Below are positions 406-7,267 of a stretch of DNA of 7,267 nt, piece after piece (position 1 is the stretch's first letter; each line of letters begins with the position of its first letter). The notes beneath the pieces were generated by a model. The model made no database searches, was not told the origin of the DNA, and saw only the letters and a list, made by a program, of their open reading frames with translations. A program made the translations under genes and the position numbers. The DNA is from a virus (Duplodnaviria > Heunggongvirae > Uroviricota > Caudoviricetes), in the IMG/VR virus record IMGVR_UViG_3300030438_000051, one strand, 5' to 3'.

Positions 406-3400
406 ATGGGTAAAGGCAGCAGTAAGGGGCATACCCCGCGCGAAGCGAAGGACAACCTGAAATCCACGCAGTTACTGAGTGTGATCGATGCCATCAGCGA
501 AGGGCCGATAGAAGGTCCGGTGGATGGATTAAAAAGCGTGCTGCTGAACAGTACGCCGGTGCTGGACAGTGAAGGGAATACCAACATCGCCGGTGTCACG
601 GTGGTGTTCCGGGCAGGTGAGCAGGAGCAGACACCGCCGGAGGGTTTTGAATCCTCCGGATCCGAGACGGTGCTGGGTACGGAAGTGAAATATGACACGC
701 CGATCACCCGGACCATCACGTCTGCAAACATCGACCGTCTGCGCTTTACCTTCGGTGTGCAGGCTCTGGTGGAAACCACTTCAAAGGGGGACCGGAATCC
801 GTCGGAAGTCCGCCTGCTGGTTCAGATACAGCGTAACGGTGGCTGGGTGACGGAAAAAGACATCACCATTAAGGGCAAAACCACCTCGCAGTATCTGGCC
901 TCGGTGGTGGTGGATAACCTGCCGCCGCGCCCGTTCAATATCCGGATGCGCAGGATGACACCGGACAGCACCACAGACCAGCTGCAGAACAAAACGCTCT
1001 GGTTGTCATACACCGAAATCATCGATGTGAAACAGTGCTACCCGAACACGGCACTGGTCGGTGTGCAGGTGGACTCGGAACAGTTCGGCAGCCAGCAGGT
1101 GAGCCGTAATTATCATCTTCGCGGGCGCATTCTGCAGGTGCCGTCGAACTATAACCCGCAGACGCGGCAATACAACGGTATCTGGGACGGGACGTTTAAA
1201 CCGGCATACAGCAACAACATGGCCTGGTGTCTGTGGGATATGCTGACCCACCCGCGCTACGGCATGGGGAAACGTCTTGGTGCGGCGGATGTGGACAAAT
1301 GGGCGCTGTATGTCATCGGCCAGTACTGCGANNNNNNNNNNNNNNNNNNNNNNNNNNNNNNNNNNNNNNNNNNNNNNNNNNNNNNNNNNNNNNNNNNNNN
1401 NNNNGTAAGGCGTGGGATGTTCTCAGTGATTTCTGCTCGGCGATGCGCTGTATGCCGGTATGGAACGGGCAGACGCTGACGTTCGTGCAGGACCGACCAT
1501 CAGATAAGGTGTGGACCTATAACCGCAGTAATGTGGTGATGCCGGATGATGGCGCACCGTTCCGCTACAGTTTCAGCGCCCTGAAGGACCGCCATAATGC
1601 CGTTGAGGTGAACTGGATTGACCCGGATAACGGCTGGGAGACGGCGACAGAGCTTGTGGAGGACACGCAGGCCATTGCCCGTTACGGTCGTAACGTCACG
1701 AAGATGGATGCCTTTGGCTGTACCAGCCGGGGGCAGGCACACCGCGCCGGGCTGTGGCTGATTAAAACGGAGCTGCTGGAAACGCAGACCGTGGATTTCA
1801 GCGTGGGCGCAGAAGGGCTTCGCCATGTACCGGGCGATGTTATTGAAATCTGCGATGATGACTATGCCGGTATCAGCACCGGTGGTCGCGTGCTGGCGGT
1901 GAACAGCCAGACCCGGACGCTGACGCTCGACCGTGAAATCACGCTGACATCTTCCGGCACCACGCTGATAAGCCTGGTTGACGGGCAGGGAAGTCCGGTC
2001 AGCGTGGAGGTTCAGTCCGTCACCGACGGCGTGAAGGTGAAAGTGAGCCGTGTTCCTGACGGCGTTGCTGAATACAGCGTGTGGGGGCTGAAGCTGCCGA
2101 CGCTGCGCCAGCGCCTGTTCCGCTGTGTGAGTATCCGTGAGAACGACGACGGTATGTATGCCATCACTGCAGTGCAGCATGTACCGGAGAAAGAGGCCAT
2201 CGTGGATAACGGGGCGCACTTTGACGGTAACCAGAGCGGCACGGTGAATGGTGTCACGCCGCCAGCAGTGCAGCATCTGACCGCAGAAGTCACCGCAGAC
2301 AGCGGGGAATACCAGGTGCTGGCGCGCTGGGATACGCCGAAGGTGGTGAAGGGCGTGAGCTTTATGCTTCGCCTGACCGTGGCAGCGGATGACGGCAGTG
2401 AGCGGCTGGTCAGCACGGCCCGGACGACGGAAACCACTTACCGCTTCAGGCAGCTGGCTCTGGGAAATTACAGTCTGACAGTCCGGGCGGTAAATGCGTG
2501 GGGGCAGCAGGGCGATCCGGCATCGGTATCGTTCCGGATTGCCGCACCGGCAGCGCCGTCTCGGATTGAGCTGACGCCGGGCTATTTTCAGATAACCGCC
2601 ACGCCGCATCTTGCGGTTTATGATCCGACGGTACAGTTTGAGTTCTGGTTCTCGGAAAAGCGGATTGCGGATATCAGGCAGGTTGAAACAAGCGCGCGTT
2701 ATCTTGGTACGGCGCTGTACTGGATAGCCGCCAGTATCAATATCAAACCGGGCCATGATTATTACTTTTATATCCGCAGTGTGAATACTGTTGGCAAATC
2801 GGCATTCGTGGAGGCTGTCGGTCGGGCGAGCGATGATGCGGAAGGTTACCTGGATTTTTTCAAAGGAGAGATAGGGAAAACACATCTGGCTCAGGAGCTG
2901 TGGACGCAGATTGATAACGGTCAGCTTGCGCCTGACCTGGCTGAAATCAGGACGTCCATTACGGATGTCAGCAATGAAATCACGCAGACTGTCAATAAGA
3001 AACTGGAAGACCAGAGTGCGGCAATCCAGCAGATACAGAAGGTTCAGGTTGATACAAATAATAACCTGAACAGCATGTGGGCTGTGAAGCTGCAGCAGAT
3101 GCAGGATGGACGCCTTTATATCGCGGGTATTGGTGCCGGTATTGAGAACACCCCCGACGGTATGCAGAGTCAGGTGCTGCTGGCGGCAGACAGGATTGCG
3201 ATGATTAATCCTGCGAATGGCAACACAAAGCCGATGTTTGTTGGTCAGGGCGATCAGATATTCATGAACGAAGTGTTCCTGAAACGCCTGACGGCTCCCA
3301 CCATTACCAGCGGCGGTAATCCTCCGGCATTTTCCCTGACACCGGACGGGCGGCTGACGGCGAAAAATGCCGATATTAGCGGTAACGTGAATGCGAACTC

Positions 3401-3887
3401 CGGGACGCTCAACAACGTCACGATTAACGAGAACTGCCGGGTTCTGGGAAAACTGTCCGCGAACCAGATTGAAGGCGATCTCGTTAAAACAGTGGGCAAA
3501 GCTTTCCCCCGGGACTCCCGTGCACCGGAGCGGTGGCCATCAGGGACTATTACCGTCAGGGTTTATGACGATCAGTCGTTTGACCGGCAAATTGTTATTC
3601 CAGCGGTGGCTTTCTGCGGTGCCAGACATGAGCGGGAGAATAGCGATACTTATTCGTCATGCCGCCTGATAGTGAAGAAAAACGGGGCTGAAATTTATAA
3701 CCGAACGGCTCTGGATAATACTCTGATTTACACGGGTGTTATTGATATGCCTGCAGGCAGTGGTGTAATGACACTGGAGTTTTCTGTATCAGCATGGTGG
3801 GTAAATGGTTGGTATCCCACAGCAAGTATCAGCGATTTGCTGGTTGTTGTGATGAAGAAAGCCACTGCAGGCATCAGTATCAGCTGA
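406..3887 (+). CDS. J: Host specificity protein J (tail tip / central tail fibre); one gene interrupted by an N-run at 1332..1404 that changes the apparent frame
   Basis: ATG at 406 is preceded by GGAG (394..397). The N-terminal translation [54 protein letters not shown]... and long downstream stretches (e.g. ...[34 protein letters not shown]..., ...[42 protein letters not shown]...) match my recollection of lambda gpJ. The coding frame is frame 1 for 406..1331 and frame 3 for 1405..3887, with stop TGA at 3885..3887. The two six-frame ORFs 406..1479 and 1227..3887 are the two halves of this one gene. Confidence 0.92.
1332..1404. other. Run of 73 ambiguous bases (N): assembly gap or masked segment inside J
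   Basis: Seen directly. The run length is not a multiple of 3 and the J reading frame differs on the two sides, so the run is a placeholder rather than the true sequence. Confidence 0.95.
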
Positions 3888-3905: not shown

Positions 3906-3930
3906 GGGCGCCAGAAATGGCGCCTTTTTT
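3906..3930 (+). terminator. Putative rho-independent terminator immediately downstream of J
   Basis: Palindromic GC stem GGCGCC (3907..3912) and GGCGCC (3919..3924) around loop AGAAAT, followed by TTTTTT (3925..3930). It lies 19 nt after the J stop. Confidence 0.6.
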
Positions 3931-3954: not shown

Positions 3955-4554
3955 ATGCGTAAAGTTTGTGCAGCCATTTTGTCCGCAGCCATCTGTCTGG
4001 CCGTATCCGGTGCGCCTGCATGGGCGTCTGAGCAGCAGGCCACACTGAGCGCAGGGTATCTTCATGCCCGTACGAACGCTCCCGGCAGCGATAATCTGAA
4101 CGGGATTAACGTGAAATACCGTTATGAGTTTACGGACACGCTGGGGCTGATTACGTCATTCAGTTATGCCAACGCTGAAGATGAGCAAAAAACGCATTAC
4201 AGCGATACCCGCTGGCATGAAGATTCCGTGTGTAACCGCTGGTTCAGCGTGATGGTGGGGCCGTCTGTGCGCGTGAATGAATGGTTCAGCGCGTATGCGA
4301 TGGCGGGTATGGCTTACAGCCGTGTGTCGACTTTCTCCGGGGATTATCTCCGCGTAACTGACAACAAGGGGAAAACGCACGATGTGCTGACCGGAAGTGA
4401 TGACGGTCGCCACAGCAACACGTCTCTGGCGTGGGGGGCTGGCGTGCAGTTTAACCCGACCGAATCCGTGGCCATTGACCTTGCTTATGAAGGTTCCGGC
4501 AGTGGTGACTGGCGCACTGACGGTTTCATCGTGGGTGTCGGTTATAAATTCTGA
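3955..4554 (+). CDS. lom: Lom outer membrane protein (Ail/Lom/PagC/OmpX-family 8-strand beta-barrel; lysogenic-conversion moron)
   Basis: ATG at 3955 is preceded by GAGAGG (3944..3949). The N-terminus [24 protein letters not shown]|SEQQ looks like a signal peptide. The C-terminus ...[23 protein letters not shown], ending in an aromatic residue, matches my recollection of lambda Lom, as do the GINVKYRYE and [12 protein letters not shown] motifs. Its position between J and stf is the same as in lambda. Confidence 0.9.
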
Positions 4555-4580: not shown

Positions 4581-4607
4581 AGCCCGCCGGTTCAGGCGGG
4601 CTTTTTT
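4581..4607 (+). terminator. Putative rho-independent terminator downstream of lom
   Basis: 8-bp perfect stem AGCCCGCC (4581..4588) and GGCGGGCT (4595..4602) around loop GGTTCA, followed by a T-run through 4607. It lies 27 nt after the lom stop and immediately before the stf ribosome-binding site. Confidence 0.65.
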
Positions 4608-4618
4608 GTGGAGTGGAT

Positions 4619-6991
4619 ATGGCAGCAGTAAAAATCTCAGGTGTGCTGAAAGATGGTGCGGGAAAACCAATACAGAACTGCACTATTCAACTGAGGGCAA
4701 AGCGTAACAGCACCACGGTACTGGTGAACACGGTGGCTTCTGAAAATCCGGATGAAGCCGGACGTTACAGCATGGATGTTGAGTATGGCCAGTACAGCGT
4801 CACCCTGCTGGTTGAAGGTTTTCCGCCTTCACATGCCGGGACCATTACCGTCTATGAAGGCTCCAGACCAGGTACGCTGAATGATTTTCTCGGTGCCATG
4901 ACGGAAGATGATGTCATGCCGGAGGCATTGCGTCGTTTTGAGGCAATGGTGGAAGAAGTGGCACGCAACGCCGAAGCCGCCTCTCAGAGCGCAGCGGCGG
5001 CAAAGAAATCCGAAACTGCAGCGGCATCATCAAAGAACGCGGCGAAAACCTCAGAAACGAATGCAGCTAATAGTGCACAGGCGGCAGCGGCCTCACAGAC
5101 TGCATCGGCAAACTCCGCGACAGCAGCCAAAAAATCAGAAACCAACGCGAAAAATAGCGAGACAGCCGCAAAGACGAGCGAAACCAACGCAAAGTCCAGC
5201 CAGACGGCAGCGAAAACCAGCGAAACGAATGCCAAAGCCAGTGAAACTGCGGCAAAAAACAGCCAGGTTGCAGCAGCCCAAAGCGAGAGCGCGGCAGCCG
5301 GTTCTGCGACTTCAGCAGCCGGATCAGCAACTGCTGCGGCTAACAGCCAGAAAGCTGCGAAGACGAGTGAAACTAACGCAAAGTCCAGCCAGACGGCAGC
5401 GAAGACCAGCGAAACGAATGCCAAAGCCAGCGAAACTGCGGCGAAAAACAGCCAGGATGCAGCAGCCGAAAGCGAGAGTGTTGCAGCTGGTTCTGCAAGC
5501 GCGGCGGCTGCTTCTGCCACTGCATCAGCTAACAGTCAAAAAGCAGCAAAAACCAGTGAAACCAACGCAAAGACAAGCGAGACTGCGGCAGCTAACTCGG
5601 CGAAAGCATCCGCTGCAAGCCAGACAGCGGCTAAAGCAAGTGAAGATGCAGCCAGGGAGTACGCAAGCCAGGCAGCTGAGCCGTATAAACAAGTTTTGCA
5701 GCCACTGCCTGATGTGTGGATACCGTTTAATGACTCGATGGATATGATTGCAGGATTTGGCCCGGGATATAAAAAAATAACAGTGCGCGATGATGTGGTC
5801 ACTATACCATCCGACAAAATTGTCCCGTTTTCCCGCGCGAGTTCCGCGACCTATATCAATAAGTCCGGCGCTCTTACCATTGCAGAAATTAATGAGCCAC
5901 GTTTTGAAAAAGAAGGGCTGTTAATTGAAGGGCAGAGAACTAACTATCTAAAAAATTCTAATACACCGGAATTGTGGTACTACCACAGTTTACTGGCGAA
6001 AGAGTATGGGGTTGATAATTACGGTTTTAATTATGCAACCGTCACCGTGACAGACAGCCTTGTAGGCACAACCAGTAGTTATCAGATTCATAGTGTAACT
6101 GGAGAGAACAGGTTTTCTCTGTCCATCGGTGAAACCTGCACTTTTTCTGCCCGCTTTCGTGGAGTTAATTCACGTTGTCGCGTCCATATATCTCTTGTTA
6201 TTGGCGAAAATGTTAAAACATCTGTTGATGTATGTCTGGAGCCAGATACAGGTGAGGTTAAGGCGTACGGTAATAAGGCGCTGGTGACATTCAGAACGGA
6301 AAAACAGGGGGACTGGTGTTACTTTGAAACAACATATACCGCCGCCGAGAATATTGACGAAGTGGTATGCGTTTTTTTTATAACCAATCCTGAAGATGGT
6401 GGTTTTTCTTCTGATTCGTCATTAACAATGACTACGCCGCAAATTGAAAAAGGGTCATGCGCTTCATCGTTTATTATTTCCGGAAACACACCAACCACGC
6501 GCGCCAGTGATATGGTTATTTTTTCAACCAAAAATAACATAAGTTCTGTCCCTTTAAGCTGTCTTGTTGAAATACATAAACATTGGGACTCTACGCCAAA
6601 TCAGGCCCCACGAATTTTAACCACTATTGGCGTGGCGACTAATGATGAACAACTGGTATTGGCTTTCAGGACGCCTACAAGTCCGGATGTAGAACCTTTA
6701 CCTTATGTTCAGTTTGGAGTGAGATCTGCATATCTTAGTCCATCTGTGAAGGCCGGGCGCAAAATGATTGCTGGTTTTGTCTGTAATAGCTCGACTGAAT
6801 TTCGTTGCTGTTGTAATGGTTACCTGTCACCTGTTCAGACTTCGTCATGGAAGAATACCGGAGCTGCACATGAAATACGTATTGGGGGAACTTCTGCTGG
6901 AGGAGAACGTCACTTGTTTGGTCACGTTCGTAACCTGAGAATATGGCATAAAGAATTAACTGATGCGCAAATGGGGGAGAGTATTAAATGA
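4619..6991 (+). CDS. stf: Side tail fibre protein (Stf-like): lambda-Stf-like N-terminal domain, Ala/Ser/Thr-rich repeat shaft, divergent distal (probably receptor-binding) domain
   Basis: The preferred start is ATG 4619, with GGAG at 4610..4613 and a 5-nt spacer; the six-frame track begins at an in-frame GTG at 4613 that lies within the Shine-Dalgarno sequence. The N-terminus MAAVKISGVLKDGAGKPIQNCTIQLRAKRNSTTVLVNTVASENPDEAGRYSMDVEYGQYSVTLLVEGFPPSHAGTITVYEGSRPGTLNDFL matches my recollection of the lambda Stf (orf-401) N-terminus. The central part is repeats of the KTSETNAKASETAAKNSQ type (phage tail-fibre repeat style). Stop TGA at 6989..6991. It is intact as one 790-codon ORF. Confidence 0.88.
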   Translation: MAAVKISGVLKDGAGKPIQNCTIQLRAKRNSTTVLVNTVASENPDEAGRYSMDVEYGQYSVTLLVEGFPPSHAGTITVYEGSRPGTLNDFLGAMTEDDVMPEALRRFEAMVEEVARNAEAASQSAAAAKKSETAAASSKNAAKTSETNAANSAQAAAASQTASANSATAAKKSETNAKNSETAAKTSETNAKSSQTAAKTSETNAKASETAAKNSQVAAAQSESAAAGSATSAAGSATAAANSQKAAKTSETNAKSSQTAAKTSETNAKASETAAKNSQDAAAESESVAAGSASAAAASATASANSQKAAKTSETNAKTSETAAANSAKASAASQTAAKASEDAAREYASQAAEPYKQVLQPLPDVWIPFNDSMDMIAGFGPGYKKITVRDDVVTIPSDKIVPFSRASSATYINKSGALTIAEINEPRFEKEGLLIEGQRTNYLKNSNTPELWYYHSLLAKEYGVDNYGFNYATVTVTDSLVGTTSSYQIHSVTGENRFSLSIGETCTFSARFRGVNSRCRVHISLVIGENVKTSVDVCLEPDTGEVKAYGNKALVTFRTEKQGDWCYFETTYTAAENIDEVVCVFFITNPEDGGFSSDSSLTMTTPQIEKGSCASSFIISGNTPTTRASDMVIFSTKNNISSVPLSCLVEIHKHWDSTPNQAPRILTTIGVATNDEQLVLAFRTPTSPDVEPLPYVQFGVRSAYLSPSVKAGRKMIAGFVCNSSTEFRCCCNGYLSPVQTSSWKNTGAAHEIRIGGTSAGGERHLFGHVRNLRIWHKELTDAQMGESIK
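5168..5545 (+). repeat. In-frame tandem duplication, 2 x 189 bp (63 codons each), within the stf repeat shaft, with a partial third copy beginning at 5546
   Basis: Seen in sequence: 5168..5356 (gcaaagacgagcgaaaccaacgcaaagtccagccagacggcagcg...) and 5357..5545 (gcgaagacgagtgaaactaacgcaaagtccagccagacggcagcg...) align along their whole length with scattered substitutions. About 27 nt of a third unit follow. Both units contain a shorter periodicity of roughly 21 and 42 bp. Confidence 0.8.
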
Positions 6992-7267
6992 AAGATTTAA
7001 CACTCAAATTTGCAGACAGGGCCGACTTTTCGGCCTTTATGGATAGCACGGGCTATTATGATGACGAGTCGATGCAGGATGATATTCTTATTGACGTGAT
7101 AGGTAACGTGTACAAAGAAACCGGAGAACTGACTGAAGATGGCGAACCGGTGTGTGTTAAGGAAGACGGATATTTTGTAAACGTGCGCATCATTAATGAT
7201 GCAAAAAAATCGTCAATATTCGATGAATACGCGGTTGTTGTTGAACATCAACTTCGTGGCTGGATGT
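6988..7267 (+). CDS. Hypothetical acidic protein, 3'-truncated by the window edge; start overlaps the stf stop (ATGA); candidate tail-fibre accessory or chaperone
   Basis: ATG 6988..6990 overlaps the stf TGA (6989..6991) and is preceded by GGGGGAGAG (6973..6981). I translated the frame by hand and it stays open for 93 codons to the window end: MKDLTLKFADRADFSAFMDSTGYYDDESMQDDILIDVIGNVYKETGELTEDGEPVCVKEDGYFVNVRIINDAKKSSIFDEYAVVVEHQLRGWM. It is absent from the supplied ORF track. I see no resemblance to lambda Tfa. The function is an inference from position only. Confidence 0.5.
   Translation, partial: MKDLTLKFADRADFSAFMDSTGYYDDESMQDDILIDVIGNVYKETGELTEDGEPVCVKEDGYFVNVRIINDAKKSSIFDEYAVVVEHQLRGWM

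What the first reader, a model, noticed from the sequence alone, without database searches (positions are those of the whole stretch)
5700..5780. Abrupt base-composition shift inside stf marks a likely recombination junction
Upstream sequence in J and the stf 5' part is G+C-rich; a hand count of 2461..2520 gives about 62% G+C. The stf 3' part and the downstream ORF are visibly A+T-rich; a hand count of 6541..6600 gives about 38% G+C. The change occurs just after the repeat shaft. This is the signature of modular exchange of the distal fibre domain, plus its coupled downstream gene, from a lower-GC donor.
Basis: seen in the sequence. Interest (0 to 1): 0.5.

Follow-up and report, generated by a model that had tools for sequence, protein, structure and literature searches.

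The report
Mosaic junction in prophage tail fibre
The drop in G+C inside this lambda-like prophage's side tail fibre gene is real and lies where a phage-specific anchor-and-shaft part meets an exchangeable, A+T-richer receptor-binding part, which is the ordinary, well-known way phage tail fibres evolve.

Summary
The strongest G+C changepoint in the window, and in 12.8 kb of the unmasked prophage, is at 5684 (support 5665-5874). G+C is 0.555-0.567 to the left and 0.427-0.444 to the right, far beyond shuffles. It lies at the end of the Ala-rich repeat shaft of stf.

- **Breakpoints:** Close lambdoid relatives are 95-100% identical up to about 5690 and diverged after it. The max-chi-square breakpoint is 5750 for two of them.
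- **Population:** About 10% of sampled E. coli prophage matches end at 5749-5778.
- **Replacement scar:** A 39-codon remnant of a lambda-type tfa lies 1.3 kb beyond the window, so an older distal module was replaced.

Four caveats apply.
- About 63% of the step comes from amino-acid composition (36% Ala in the shaft). Only about 37% comes from codon choice.
- This junction is one of at least six recurrent ones. The head/shaft boundary near 4960-4976 is the commonest. The crispest junctions, 5977 and 6503, carry no compositional signal.
- The downstream 93-aa ORF always accompanies the fibre type, but its alleles assort independently of the variable domains.
- No donor was found. Sharing with T1-, T5-, Nonagvirus- and Dhillonvirus-type phages is old.

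This is a known kind of tail-fibre mosaicism and of low interest.

The parts
4619..6991 (+). stf, side tail fibre gene (790 aa from the RefSeq ATG at 4619; the mechanical ORF list starts at GTG 4613)
   Evidence: ORF. RefSeq CDS WP_094314108.1 in the 100% identical prophage. End-to-end match to phrog_1419.
4619..4969 (+). Head, a lambdoid-specific virion-attachment domain (Prophage tail fibre N-terminal, PF08400). G+C 0.52, GC3 0.50.
   Evidence: PF08400 E 2.4e-66 at aa 5-134. 61% aa identity to lambda orf-401. 29 of 60 sampled E. coli matches end here, at window 4958-4976. Not homologous to the Drexlerviridae head.
4970..5655 (+). Repeat shaft (36% Ala, 18% Ser, 11% Thr, 10% Lys). G+C 0.56, GC2 0.67, GC3 0.49. 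Contains several recurrent homology end-points (5088, 5194-5200, 5245, 5509, 5581).
   Evidence: TRF 189-nt x2.3 at 5156-5583 and 42-nt units. Composition. End-points.
5656..5760 (+). Conserved linker encoding EYAsQAAEPYKqvLQPLPDVWIPFNDS. It holds the G+C changepoint (5684) and the identity breakpoint seen with 2G7b and IdasGreatGrand (5750). Nucleotide similarity to T1-like phages starts here.
   Evidence: Changepoint. Alignment. Max-chi-square. blastn to swan01 and KarlJaspers starts at 5656. Motif present in lambdoid, Drexlerviridae, T5-like, Nonagvirus and Dhillonvirus fibres.
5761..5977 (+). Neck, moderately conserved at protein level (54-82% aa across all lineages) with near-saturated synonymous sites. 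A+T-rich.
5978..6502 (+). Domain A, an exchangeable cassette matching the GTA head-spike-fibre domain (NF048003, aa 435-629 = nt 5921-6505). Crisp breakpoints at 5977/5978 and 6502/6503, with no compositional signal.
   Evidence: NCBIfam E 1.9e-17. Weak PDB hit to RcGTA head spike fibre 6tb9 (E 0.015). L016-L018 share 4602-5977 (96%) and 6503-7267 (99%) but not this block. Most of the 75 partial E. coli matches cover only 6503/6506-6900.
6503..6900 (+). Domain B, the second variable block; 20-44% aa identity to the relatives aligned. A weak concanavalin/LamG-like signal lies mostly in the adjoining conserved 3' end (nt 6782-6970).
   Evidence: identities. Laminin_G_3 E 4.8e-4, below the curated cut-off, at aa 365-427 of the C-part, i.e. 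nt 6782-6970..
6901..7011 (+). Conserved 3' end of stf (RHLFGHVRNLRIWHKELTDAQMGE) plus the first 24 nt of the next ORF. This is the right-hand recombination zone, where identity to 2G7b and PhiR46_1 returns and identity to the FDAARGOS_497-type prophages ends (7011).
6988..7267 (+). Small downstream ORF (93 aa; its stop is 2 nt beyond the window; start overlaps the stf stop as ATGA). phrog_1361, function unknown, not a lambda Tfa. G+C 0.42.
   Evidence: Present after the fibre gene in all five phage lineages.

Best explanation
The window is the tail-tip end of a lambda-like prophage integrated next to the bio operon of E. coli. The G+C step at about 5684 marks a module boundary inside the side tail fibre gene.

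To its left lie the head, which fixes the fibre to a lambda-type tail, and an Ala-rich repeat shaft. Both are shared at high nucleotide identity with other lambdoid prophages.

To its right begins an A+T-richer distal module. It comprises a neck, a GTA-spike-fibre-like domain and a second variable domain (with a weak LamG-like signal at the conserved 3' end), followed by a 93-aa ORF. Beyond the window there is a second fibre-like ORF. The same kind of module is carried behind unrelated heads by T1-like, T5-like, Nonagvirus and Dhillonvirus phages.

In this lineage the module replaced a lambda-type stf-3'/tfa module, whose last 39 codons survive downstream. Exchange most likely occurs by homologous recombination between co-infecting or resident phages within short conserved stretches. 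These are the shaft repeats, the linker at 5656-5760, the flanks of domain A at 5977 and 6503, and the conserved 3' end at 6901-7011. Receptor-binding alleles are therefore reshuffled while the virion attachment part stays put.

Shown: the step, the breakpoints, the non-co-occurrence of parts, and the tfa scar. Inferred: the recombination mechanism, the receptor-binding role (probably surface glycans), and the view that the low synonymous G+C reflects residence in lower-G+C phage genomes. Roughly two thirds of the step's size is simply the Ala-rich shaft.
For: **Step**
- Changepoint at 5684 with LLR 40.5 in the window and 66.2 in 12.8 kb of L001; shuffle maximum 7.65.

**Codon level**
- GC3 is 0.65 in J, 0.60 in lom, 0.49-0.50 in the stf head and shaft, and 0.36 in the stf C-part.
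- After removing amino-acid composition, the C-part still has an extra codon-choice deficit of 0.049 relative to the shaft (95% CI 0.023-0.075).

**Breakpoints**
- Max-chi-square breakpoints fall at 5750 (2G7b, IdasGreatGrand), 5978 (PhiR46_1), 5581 (PhiR47_1) and 5089 (Lambda_ev203).
- In a spread sample of 60 of 4,867 E. coli records, matches end at 4958-4976 (29), 5088 (6), 5194-5200 (8), 5245 (3), 5509 (1), 5749-5778 (6) and 5947-5971 (4); 2 are full length and 1 is an internal fragment.

**Non-co-occurrence**
- Some part of stf is present in 4,819 of 5,426 genomes. The full gene plus small ORF is in 104, and the variable domains are in 93-168.

**Replacement scar**
- L001 12695-12814 is 85% identical to lambda Tfa aa 156-194. 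The window's C-part and small ORF have no similarity to lambda orf-314 or Tfa.

**Composition follows history, not function**
- C-part GC3 is 0.28-0.37 in lambdoids, 0.26-0.30 in Drexlerviridae, 0.30 in Nonagvirus, 0.28 in a T5-like phage and 0.57 in a Dhillonvirus.
- Head and shaft GC3 track each resident genome. In T5-like EC104 there is no total-G+C step (0.413 vs 0.409).
- Lambda's own distal module shows no GC3 step.

**Literature**
- Lateral fibre loci of these siphoviruses are conserved only at the far 5' end (PMC8594841).
- Lambda STF N-terminus fused to foreign C-termini gives functional fibres (PMC11338833).
Against: - 0.083 of the 0.131 local step is explained by amino-acid composition alone. 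A shaft-to-C drop of about 0.08 in total G+C is seen even where no synonymous step exists (Dhillonvirus, lambda). The raw G+C plot therefore overstates the 'foreign' signal.
- The same step occurs in every lambdoid relative examined and in Drexlerviridae. It records an old, inherited architecture, not an event specific to this prophage.
- The stf head and shaft already have lower GC3 (0.49-0.50) than J and lom (0.60-0.65). The compositional boundary is thus a staircase, not a single edge.
- The most recent, sharpest exchanges (5977, 6503, 7011) leave no compositional trace.
- No donor with more than 85% nucleotide identity to 5978-6900 exists among 50,697 phage records. Cross-family synonymous sites are near saturation. 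Direction and timing of transfer are therefore unknown.
Confidence: 0.74

Rival explanations
1. The step is only a protein-composition effect. An Ala-rich (GCN) shaft is followed by a globular domain of ordinary composition, with no bearing on recombination.
For: GC2 falls from 0.67-0.68 to 0.46. 63% of the local step is predicted from amino-acid content with resident codon usage. A similar total-G+C drop is seen in lambda and in the Dhillonvirus homologue without a GC3 drop.
Against: GC3 also falls, from 0.49 to 0.36. The codon-choice deficit difference is 0.049 with a CI that excludes 0. Identity breakpoints of close relatives fall at 5750. The low G+C continues through two further ORFs of quite different amino-acid composition. 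A tfa remnant is present.
Confidence: 0.07
2. The low G+C is a regional property of the distal end of the lambdoid late operon and the b region (weakly expressed accessory genes, relaxed codon adaptation, A+T-biased mutation). It does not reflect donor composition, and the junction with the shaft is incidental.
For: Lambda itself drops to 0.28-0.34 G+C just beyond tfa. This prophage ends with a 25-28% G+C cargo gene. GC3 declines stepwise from J to lom to the stf head to the C-part. Synonymous sites shared with virulent phages are saturated, so the module has been in its present lineages a long time without ameliorating.
Against: Lambda's own stf 3' part and tfa, in the same genomic position, have GC3 0.46-0.48. 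The same module has GC3 0.57 in a 53% G+C Dhillonvirus and 0.26-0.30 in 39-45% G+C virulent phages. This shows composition tracking the carrier genomes, with lambdoids as the outlier.
Confidence: 0.15
3. A single recent transfer from a T1-like (Drexlerviridae) virulent phage into this particular prophage created the junction.
For: Nucleotide similarity to swan01 and KarlJaspers begins at 5656, next to the changepoint. Their genomes are 0.43-0.45 G+C, like the C-part.
Against: Identity is only 69-75% and confined to conserved patches. Only 32-56% of codons for identical residues are the same codon. The same architecture is present in 104 E. coli genomes and in several isolated lambdoid phages with different alleles. 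The best protein matches are spread over T5-like, Dhillonvirus and T1-like phages at 46-53%.
Confidence: 0.03
4. Programmed variation, either an invertible segment (Pin/Gin/Cin type) or a diversity-generating retroelement, and not recombination between phages, produces the alternative distal parts.
For: A related prophage (FDAARGOS_497) has pinQ next to its tfa remnant. Invertible tail-fibre segments are well known in Mu, P1, e14 and related elements (established knowledge).
Against: There are no inverted repeats of 18 nt or more in L001 8900-13000. This prophage has no invertase or reverse transcriptase between stf and its end. All the ORFs concerned lie on one strand.
Confidence: 0.01

Closest known systems
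Bacteriophage lambda (Ur-lambda) side tail fibre Stf with Tfa
   Same: Same position after J and lom. The N-terminal head and first part of the shaft are homologous (61% aa over 285 residues; PF08400). A C-terminal fragment of a lambda-type Tfa still lies downstream.
   Different: The distal half and the following gene are unrelated to lambda orf-314 and Tfa (E > 5). Lambda's distal part shows no synonymous G+C drop.
Lateral tail fibre locus of Drexlerviridae (T1-like), Markadamsvirinae (T5-like), Nonagvirus and Dhillonvirus phages, as described for the BASEL collection (PMC8594841)
   Same: Same linker motif, neck, GTA-spike-fibre-like and LamG-like domains. Same ~92-aa downstream ORF, followed by a second fibre-like ORF. 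Same rule that only the 5' end is lineage-conserved.
   Different: Those phages carry a different head domain for their own tails and shorter shafts. Their own genome G+C matches the module, so little or no codon-level step is seen (T5-like: none or reversed; Dhillonvirus: the module itself is G+C-rich).
Horizontal exchange of tail-fibre segments among unrelated phages (P2 H / lambda stf / T4 gp37-38 / Mu S / P1 S; Haggard-Ljungquist et al. 1992; Sandmeier 1994; Tetart et al. 1998 - cited from my own knowledge, not read here)
   Same: Conserved short segments flank variable receptor-binding cassettes and act as recombination zones. The N-terminal attachment part is retained.
   Different: A different distal fold family (GTA-spike-fibre/LamG type rather than the gp37/H type), and a different accessory gene (a 93-aa ORF of unknown function instead of Tfa/gp38).
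Segmental G+C heterogeneity of the lambda chromosome (Skalka, Burgi and Hershey 1968; Sanger et al. 1982 - from my own knowledge), reproduced
   Same: A G+C-rich structural left arm gives way to A+T-rich DNA near the tail-fibre genes.
   Different: In lambda the drop comes after tfa (about 22.4 kb). Here it comes inside stf, at the shaft/distal-module boundary.

Membership tests
Lambdoid side tail fibre (Stf) | N-terminal 'prophage tail fibre N-terminal' domain (PF08400) | tested here: met
   E 2.4e-66, aa 5-134. 61% aa identity to lambda orf-401.
Lambdoid side tail fibre (Stf) | Gene located directly downstream of J and lom in a lambda-type tail operon | tested here: met
   RefSeq annotation of the identical prophage reads tape measure, M, L, K, I, J, Lom, then this gene.
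Lambdoid side tail fibre (Stf) | Distal part homologous to lambda orf-314 / P2 H and followed by a Tfa-type assembly protein | tested here: not met
   No significant blastp match to orf-314 or Tfa. The downstream ORF is phrog_1361 with no Pfam or NCBIfam match. Only a 39-codon Tfa remnant is present, 1.3 kb further on.
phrog_1419-type lateral fibre distal module (shared with T1-, T5-, Nonagvirus- and Dhillonvirus-type phages) | Linker motif AAEPYK..LQPLPDVWIPFNDS followed by the neck | tested here: met
   Found in the window and in all 11 homologues aligned; two variants, PhiR47_1 with PLPDIWLPLNDS and Dhillonvirus LM40P1 with GAPYK/PLPDVWVPF.
phrog_1419-type lateral fibre distal module (shared with T1-, T5-, Nonagvirus- and Dhillonvirus-type phages) | GTA head-spike-fibre-like domain and conserved C-terminal RHLFGH.RN.RIW motif | tested here: met
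   NF048003 scores 64.4 bits against a cut-off of 36. phrog_1419 residues 357-793 match at E 8.6e-159. Alignment.
phrog_1419-type lateral fibre distal module (shared with T1-, T5-, Nonagvirus- and Dhillonvirus-type phages) | Immediately followed by a ~92-aa phrog_1361 ORF | tested here: met
   E 2.1e-46. The ORF is present in every lineage examined.
Recombination (mosaic) junction | Statistically significant compositional discontinuity | tested here: met
   LLR 40.5 and 66.2 against a shuffle maximum of 7.65.
Recombination (mosaic) junction | The discontinuity persists at synonymous / codon-choice level | tested here: met
   GC3 falls from 0.49 to 0.36. The codon-choice difference is 0.049 (CI 0.023-0.075), only about 37% of the step.
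Recombination (mosaic) junction | Abrupt change of pairwise identity with relatives at the same place | tested here: met
   Max-chi-square breakpoint at 5750 for 2G7b and IdasGreatGrand. Other relatives break at 5089, 5581 and 5978. 6 of 60 sampled E. coli records end at 5749-5778.
Recombination (mosaic) junction | The two flanks occur in different combinations in other genomes | tested here: met
   The head is in about 4,800 genomes and this C-part in 93-168. The same C-part family sits behind unrelated heads in four other phage lineages.
Recombination (mosaic) junction | Identified donor lineage or direction of transfer | tested here: inconclusive
   No close nucleotide match outside E. coli prophages. 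Synonymous sites are saturated against virulent phages.
Invertible tail-fibre segment (Gin/Cin/Pin) | Inverted crossover sites flanking alternative 3' fibre exons, plus a serine invertase | tested here: not met
   No inverted repeats of 18 nt or more. No invertase annotated in this prophage end.

The most novel reading that the evidence does not exclude
The fibre C-part, the ~92-aa ORF and the second fibre-like ORF form a self-contained three-gene 'plug-in' receptor-binding unit, possibly a branched fibre in which the small protein is an adaptor or chaperone. This unit would move between temperate lambdoid and virulent T1-, T5-, Nonagvirus- and Dhillonvirus-type phages, using the conserved linker at 5656-5760 as a universal docking and recombination point. 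Its persistently low G+C in lambdoid prophages would then reflect continuing import from virulent phages, i.e. measurable gene flow from lytic to temperate coliphages.
Probability: 0.12. Interest if true: 0.4.

Novelty: new member of a known kind. Interest (0 to 1): 0.2.

Why it matters
It matters little as a discovery. Modular exchange of the distal parts of phage tail fibres, with the virion-attachment end retained, is textbook, and it is already exploited to retarget lambda particles (PMC11338833).

The practical value is a base-level map of where this widespread E. coli prophage fibre can be cut and rejoined: 4960-4976, the shaft repeats, 5656-5760, 5977, 6503 and 6901-7011. The analysis also shows that a raw G+C plot over an Ala-rich shaft exaggerates the 'foreign DNA' signal by roughly a factor of three.

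The cross-lineage table is a tidy illustration of module-specific compositional history. The same module has GC3 of 0.26-0.37 in four lineages and 0.57 in Dhillonvirus, while head and shaft GC3 track the resident genome.

Tried and rejected
- **DNA-level conservation of the linker.** I asked whether 5656-5760 is conserved at the DNA level beyond what the protein requires, as a dedicated recombination site would be. Among codons for identical residues, only 32-56% are the same codon against the other phage families, no better than in the neck (37-51%). Rejected.
- **Allele coupling of the small ORF.** Its identity does not correlate with the variable domains (r = 0.00 and -0.11). It correlates only with the physically adjacent stf 3' end (r = 0.61). 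Rejected as a domain-specific partner, though it could still be a general assembly factor.
- **Donor search.** megablast and blastn of phages, and pattern scans of GTDB genomes and IMG/VR, returned only E. coli prophage-type loci plus one 2.8-kb contig binned as Collinsella that is 95-99% identical to the window over the segments that align, lacking only domain A. No donor was found.
- **Solved structures.** There is only a marginal hit to the RcGTA head spike fibre (E 0.015).
- **Invertible-segment and DGR idea.** No inverted repeats were found.
- **Failed script.** One search returned nothing because all loci are stored in one FASTA file. It was repeated correctly.
- **Megablast end-points.** The end-points at 5778 and 5799 are partly sensitivity limits, since blastn extends the same matches to about 5946 at falling identity. 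I therefore located breakpoints with codon-aligned max-chi-square tests and did not rely on hit ends alone.
Full report
**What the window is**

The window is 100% identical over 4613-7267 to the chromosome of E. coli S1-CAM-01-C. There it lies in a lambda-type prophage next to ybhB and the bio operon. The annotated gene order is tape measure, M, L, K, I, J, Lom, a 'prophage tail fiber N-terminal domain-containing protein', and then several small and fibre-like ORFs.

In window coordinates the genes are:

| Gene | Coordinates | Note |
|---|---|---|
| I (3' end) | 1-345 | |
| J | 406-3887 | interrupted by a masked run of N at 1332-1404 |
| lom | 3955-4554 | |
| stf | 4619-6991 | |
| 93-aa ORF | 6988-7269 | |

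**The observation**

Both hand counts are right: 61.7% and 38.3%. A likelihood changepoint scan places the strongest step of the window at 5684, with G+C 0.555 to the left and 0.427 to the right (LLR 40.5).

Restricted to stf and downstream, the optimum is again 5684, with a support interval of 5665-5874. Its LLR is 19.3, against a maximum of 7.65 in 200 shuffles.

On 12.8 kb of the unmasked prophage, the same base is the single strongest changepoint (LLR 66.2; 0.567 | 0.444). A weaker step lies inside J at 2583.

The step follows the repeat shaft. TRF finds a 189-nt unit repeated 2.3 times at 5156-5583. The Ala-rich sequence ends at about 5655-5690.

**How much of the step is 'foreign' composition**

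The shaft is 36% Ala, 18% Ser, 11% Thr and 10% Lys, so its second codon positions are 67-68% G+C against 46% in the C-part.

I used the codon usage of the resident tail genes (M to lom) to predict G+C from amino-acid content. The shaft should be 0.610 and the C-part 0.527. The observed values are 0.562 and 0.431.

Of the local step of 0.131, 0.083 (63%) is therefore amino-acid composition and 0.049 (37%; bootstrap 95% CI 0.023-0.075) is codon choice.

GC3 declines in a staircase:

| Gene or part | GC3 |
|---|---|
| J | 0.65 |
| lom | 0.60 |
| stf head and shaft | 0.49-0.50 |
| stf C-part | 0.36 |
| small ORF | 0.43 |
| next fibre-like ORF | 0.41 |

A real codon-level drop exists at the shaft/C-part boundary, but it is about a third as large as the raw plot suggests.

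**Anatomy of the fibre**

- **Head:** PF08400 covers aa 5-134.
- **Whole protein:** it matches phrog_1419 end to end.
- **Domain A:** NCBIfam finds a GTA head-spike-fibre domain at aa 435-629, i.e. nt 5921-6505. There is a marginal PDB echo, RcGTA 6tb9, E 0.015.
- **C-terminal end:** a sub-threshold LamG-type signal is present.
- **Small ORF:** the 93-aa ORF is phrog_1361 of unknown function, with no Pfam or NCBIfam match.
- **Comparison with lambda:** similarity is confined to the head and early shaft (61% over 285 aa). The distal part and the small ORF are unrelated to orf-314 and Tfa.

**Relatives and breakpoints**

Among isolated phages, lambdoid relatives share the 5' part at 92-98% nucleotide identity, but no record covers 80% of stf plus the small ORF.

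Codon-aligned comparison shows that 2G7b, PhiR46_1 and IdasGreatGrand differ from the window by 2-10% per 60 nt up to about 5680. The difference then rises to 10-17% at 5680-5740 and to 23-40% from 5740. It is at random-like levels from 5980 to 6900, and similarity returns from about 6900 through the small ORF.

Max-chi-square breakpoints are:

| Relative | Breakpoint |
|---|---|
| 2G7b | 5750 |
| IdasGreatGrand | 5750 |
| PhiR46_1 | 5978 (with a minor step near 5740) |
| PhiR47_1 | 5581 |
| Lambda_ev203 | 5089 |

I took an evenly spaced sample of 60 of the 4,867 matching E. coli records. Their homology ends at the following window positions:

| End of match | Records |
|---|---|
| 4958-4976 (head/shaft boundary) | 29 |
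| 5088 | 6 |
| 5194-5200 | 8 |
| 5245 | 3 |
| 5509 | 1 |
| 5749-5778 | 6 |
| 5947-5971 | 4 |
| full length | 2 |
| internal fragment only (window 5068-5199) | 1 |

It is one of at least six junction classes, and not the commonest.

**Finer mosaic inside the A+T-rich part**

Three IMG/VR loci share 4602-5977 (96%) and 6503-7267 (99%) with the window but carry a different domain A. Most of the 75 partially matching E. coli genomes match only 6503/6506-6900, which fits the same pattern.

FDAARGOS_497 matches the window through stf as far as 7011. Every other 99.3% hit listed ends at the same point. In FDAARGOS_497 the small ORF is only 42% identical in protein.

These crisp junctions (5977, 6503, 7011) carry no compositional signal, because both partners are A+T-rich.

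Across 11 loci, small-ORF identity is uncorrelated with domain A or domain B identity (r = 0.00 and -0.11). It correlates with the adjacent stf 3' end (r = 0.61). The downstream gene is therefore linked to the fibre type but not allele-coupled to the specificity domains.

**Evidence that a module was replaced**

Beyond the window, L001 carries three further features:
- a second fibre-like ORF with an S74 chaperone domain;
- another small ORF;
- a 39-codon fragment that is 85% identical to the C-terminus of lambda Tfa (aa 156-194).

That fragment is a scar of a lambda-type stf-3'/tfa module. The present distal block, from within stf to just before this scar, has taken its place. No inverted repeats or invertase are present, so programmed inversion is not the mechanism here.

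**Where the module occurs, and with what composition**

The C-part family (46-53% aa identity) occurs in T5-like, T1-like, Nonagvirus, Dhillonvirus and lambdoid phages. In every case a ~92-aa ORF follows, usually with a second fibre-like ORF. The module sits behind heads that are unrelated between lineages.

| Lineage | Head/shaft GC3 | C-part GC3 | Flanking G+C |
|---|---|---|---|
| Lambdoids | 0.45-0.53 | 0.28-0.37 | 0.53-0.56 upstream |
| Drexlerviridae | 0.39-0.44 | 0.26-0.30 | 0.44 |
| Nonagvirus JenP2 | 0.29-0.38 | 0.30 | 0.40-0.42 |
| T5-like EC104 | 0.11-0.19 | 0.28 | 0.39 |
| Dhillonvirus LM40P1 | 0.59-0.68 | 0.57 | 0.53 |

(Values.)

In EC104 total G+C is 0.413 in the shaft and 0.409 in the C-part, so there is no step. 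The Dhillonvirus case shows that the protein does not require A+T-rich codons. Lambda, with the alternative distal module, has GC3 of 0.49 then 0.48 across the equivalent boundary.

However, synonymous sites shared with the virulent phages are near saturation, and no close donor exists in the collections searched. The donor and the date remain unknown. A regional, expression-linked explanation for the low G+C cannot be excluded.

**Mechanism proposed**

Shown:
- the step;
- the breakpoints;
- the reassortment of parts;
- the tfa scar.

Inferred:
- Exchange happens by homologous recombination within conserved stretches. These are the shaft repeats, the linker encoding EYAsQAAEPYKqvLQPLPDVWIPFNDS, the TRASD-containing patch before 6503, and the RHLFGHVRNLRIW 3' end.
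- The exchange takes place between co-resident or co-infecting phages.
- The head keeps the fibre compatible with the lambda-type tail, while the distal domains set the primary receptor, probably surface glycans. That receptor role is the one the BASEL authors propose for these lateral fibres (PMC8594841).
- Functional tolerance of such fusions is documented for lambda STF chimeras (PMC11338833).

**Comparison with what is known, and verdict**

This is an ordinary instance of tail-fibre mosaicism in a RefSeq-annotated prophage carried by about a hundred sequenced strains. It qualifies as a lambdoid Stf by head and position. It fails the 'lambda-type distal part plus Tfa' feature, and instead belongs with the phrog_1419-type distal module shared with several virulent siphovirus groups.

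- Observation: confirmed.
- Interpretation: partly supported. The junction and the modular exchange hold. The 'coupled' downstream gene holds only at the level of gene type. The 'lower-GC donor' is plausible but unproven. Most of the raw step is the Ala-rich shaft.
- Interest: low.

Noticed in passing
window 1332-1404: A run of 73 N (masked or unresolved) lies inside gene J. It fakes a G+C dip at 1201-1500 in sliding windows and splits J into two ORFs in the mechanical ORF list.
   Followed up: yes
window 2583; 2904-3116; 3436-3847: There is a second, weaker G+C changepoint inside J (0.588 to 0.529). Nucleotide homology to 2G7b, IdasGreatGrand and PhiR47_1 is interrupted in the 3' third of J. 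The receptor-binding end of the central fibre is therefore mosaic too.
   Followed up: partly
window ~4000-4100 (lom): A local patch of about 69-70% identity sits within an otherwise 86-100% identical lom in comparisons with 2G7b, PhiR46_1, PhiR47_1 and FDAARGOS_497. It may be a variable surface loop of the Lom/Ail barrel.
   Followed up: no
window 3906-3925 and 4581-4602: Terminator-like G+C-rich hairpins with T-runs lie directly after J and after lom, so lom is bracketed like a moron cassette. The number of such sites in the region is no higher than in shuffles.
   Followed up: no
window 6988-6991: The stf stop codon and the small-ORF start codon overlap as ATGA, which suggests translational coupling of the 93-aa ORF to stf.
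   Followed up: no
L001 11667-12814 (window-equivalent 7279-8426, beyond the window): This stretch holds a second fibre-like ORF that corresponds only to the C-terminal end of a long fibre family (phrog_3299 positions 1147-1384, S74 chaperone domain). It is followed by a 97-aa ORF (phrog_1443) and a 39-codon remnant of lambda-type Tfa. These look like stacked remains of successive fibre modules.
   Followed up: partly
L001 12888-14219: A sensor diguanylate cyclase gene of only 25-28% G+C lies on the opposite strand, between the last prophage-type ORF and ybhB/bio. It may be prophage cargo or a separate islet.
   Followed up: no
L002-L012 (fibre loci of five phage lineages): The order 'fibre gene, ~92-aa ORF, second fibre-like or endosialidase-like ORF' is conserved in lambdoid, T1-like, T5-like, Nonagvirus and Dhillonvirus phages. 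This hints at a three-gene unit, possibly a branched fibre.
   Followed up: partly
window 4900-5700: The coding strand of the shaft has a very strong A-over-T skew (0.45-0.75). The long out-of-frame and antisense ORFs there (4908-5747 on +, 4984-5520 on -) are artefacts of the Ala-rich repeat, not genes.
   Followed up: no
L013 (JAGZNZ010000051.1): A 2.8-kb contig binned as a Collinsella MAG is 95-99% identical to this E. coli prophage fibre over the segments that align (5342-5977, 6503-6878, 6940-7267). It carries a different domain A, like L016-L018. It is almost certainly a mis-binned Escherichia phage fragment.
   Followed up: partly
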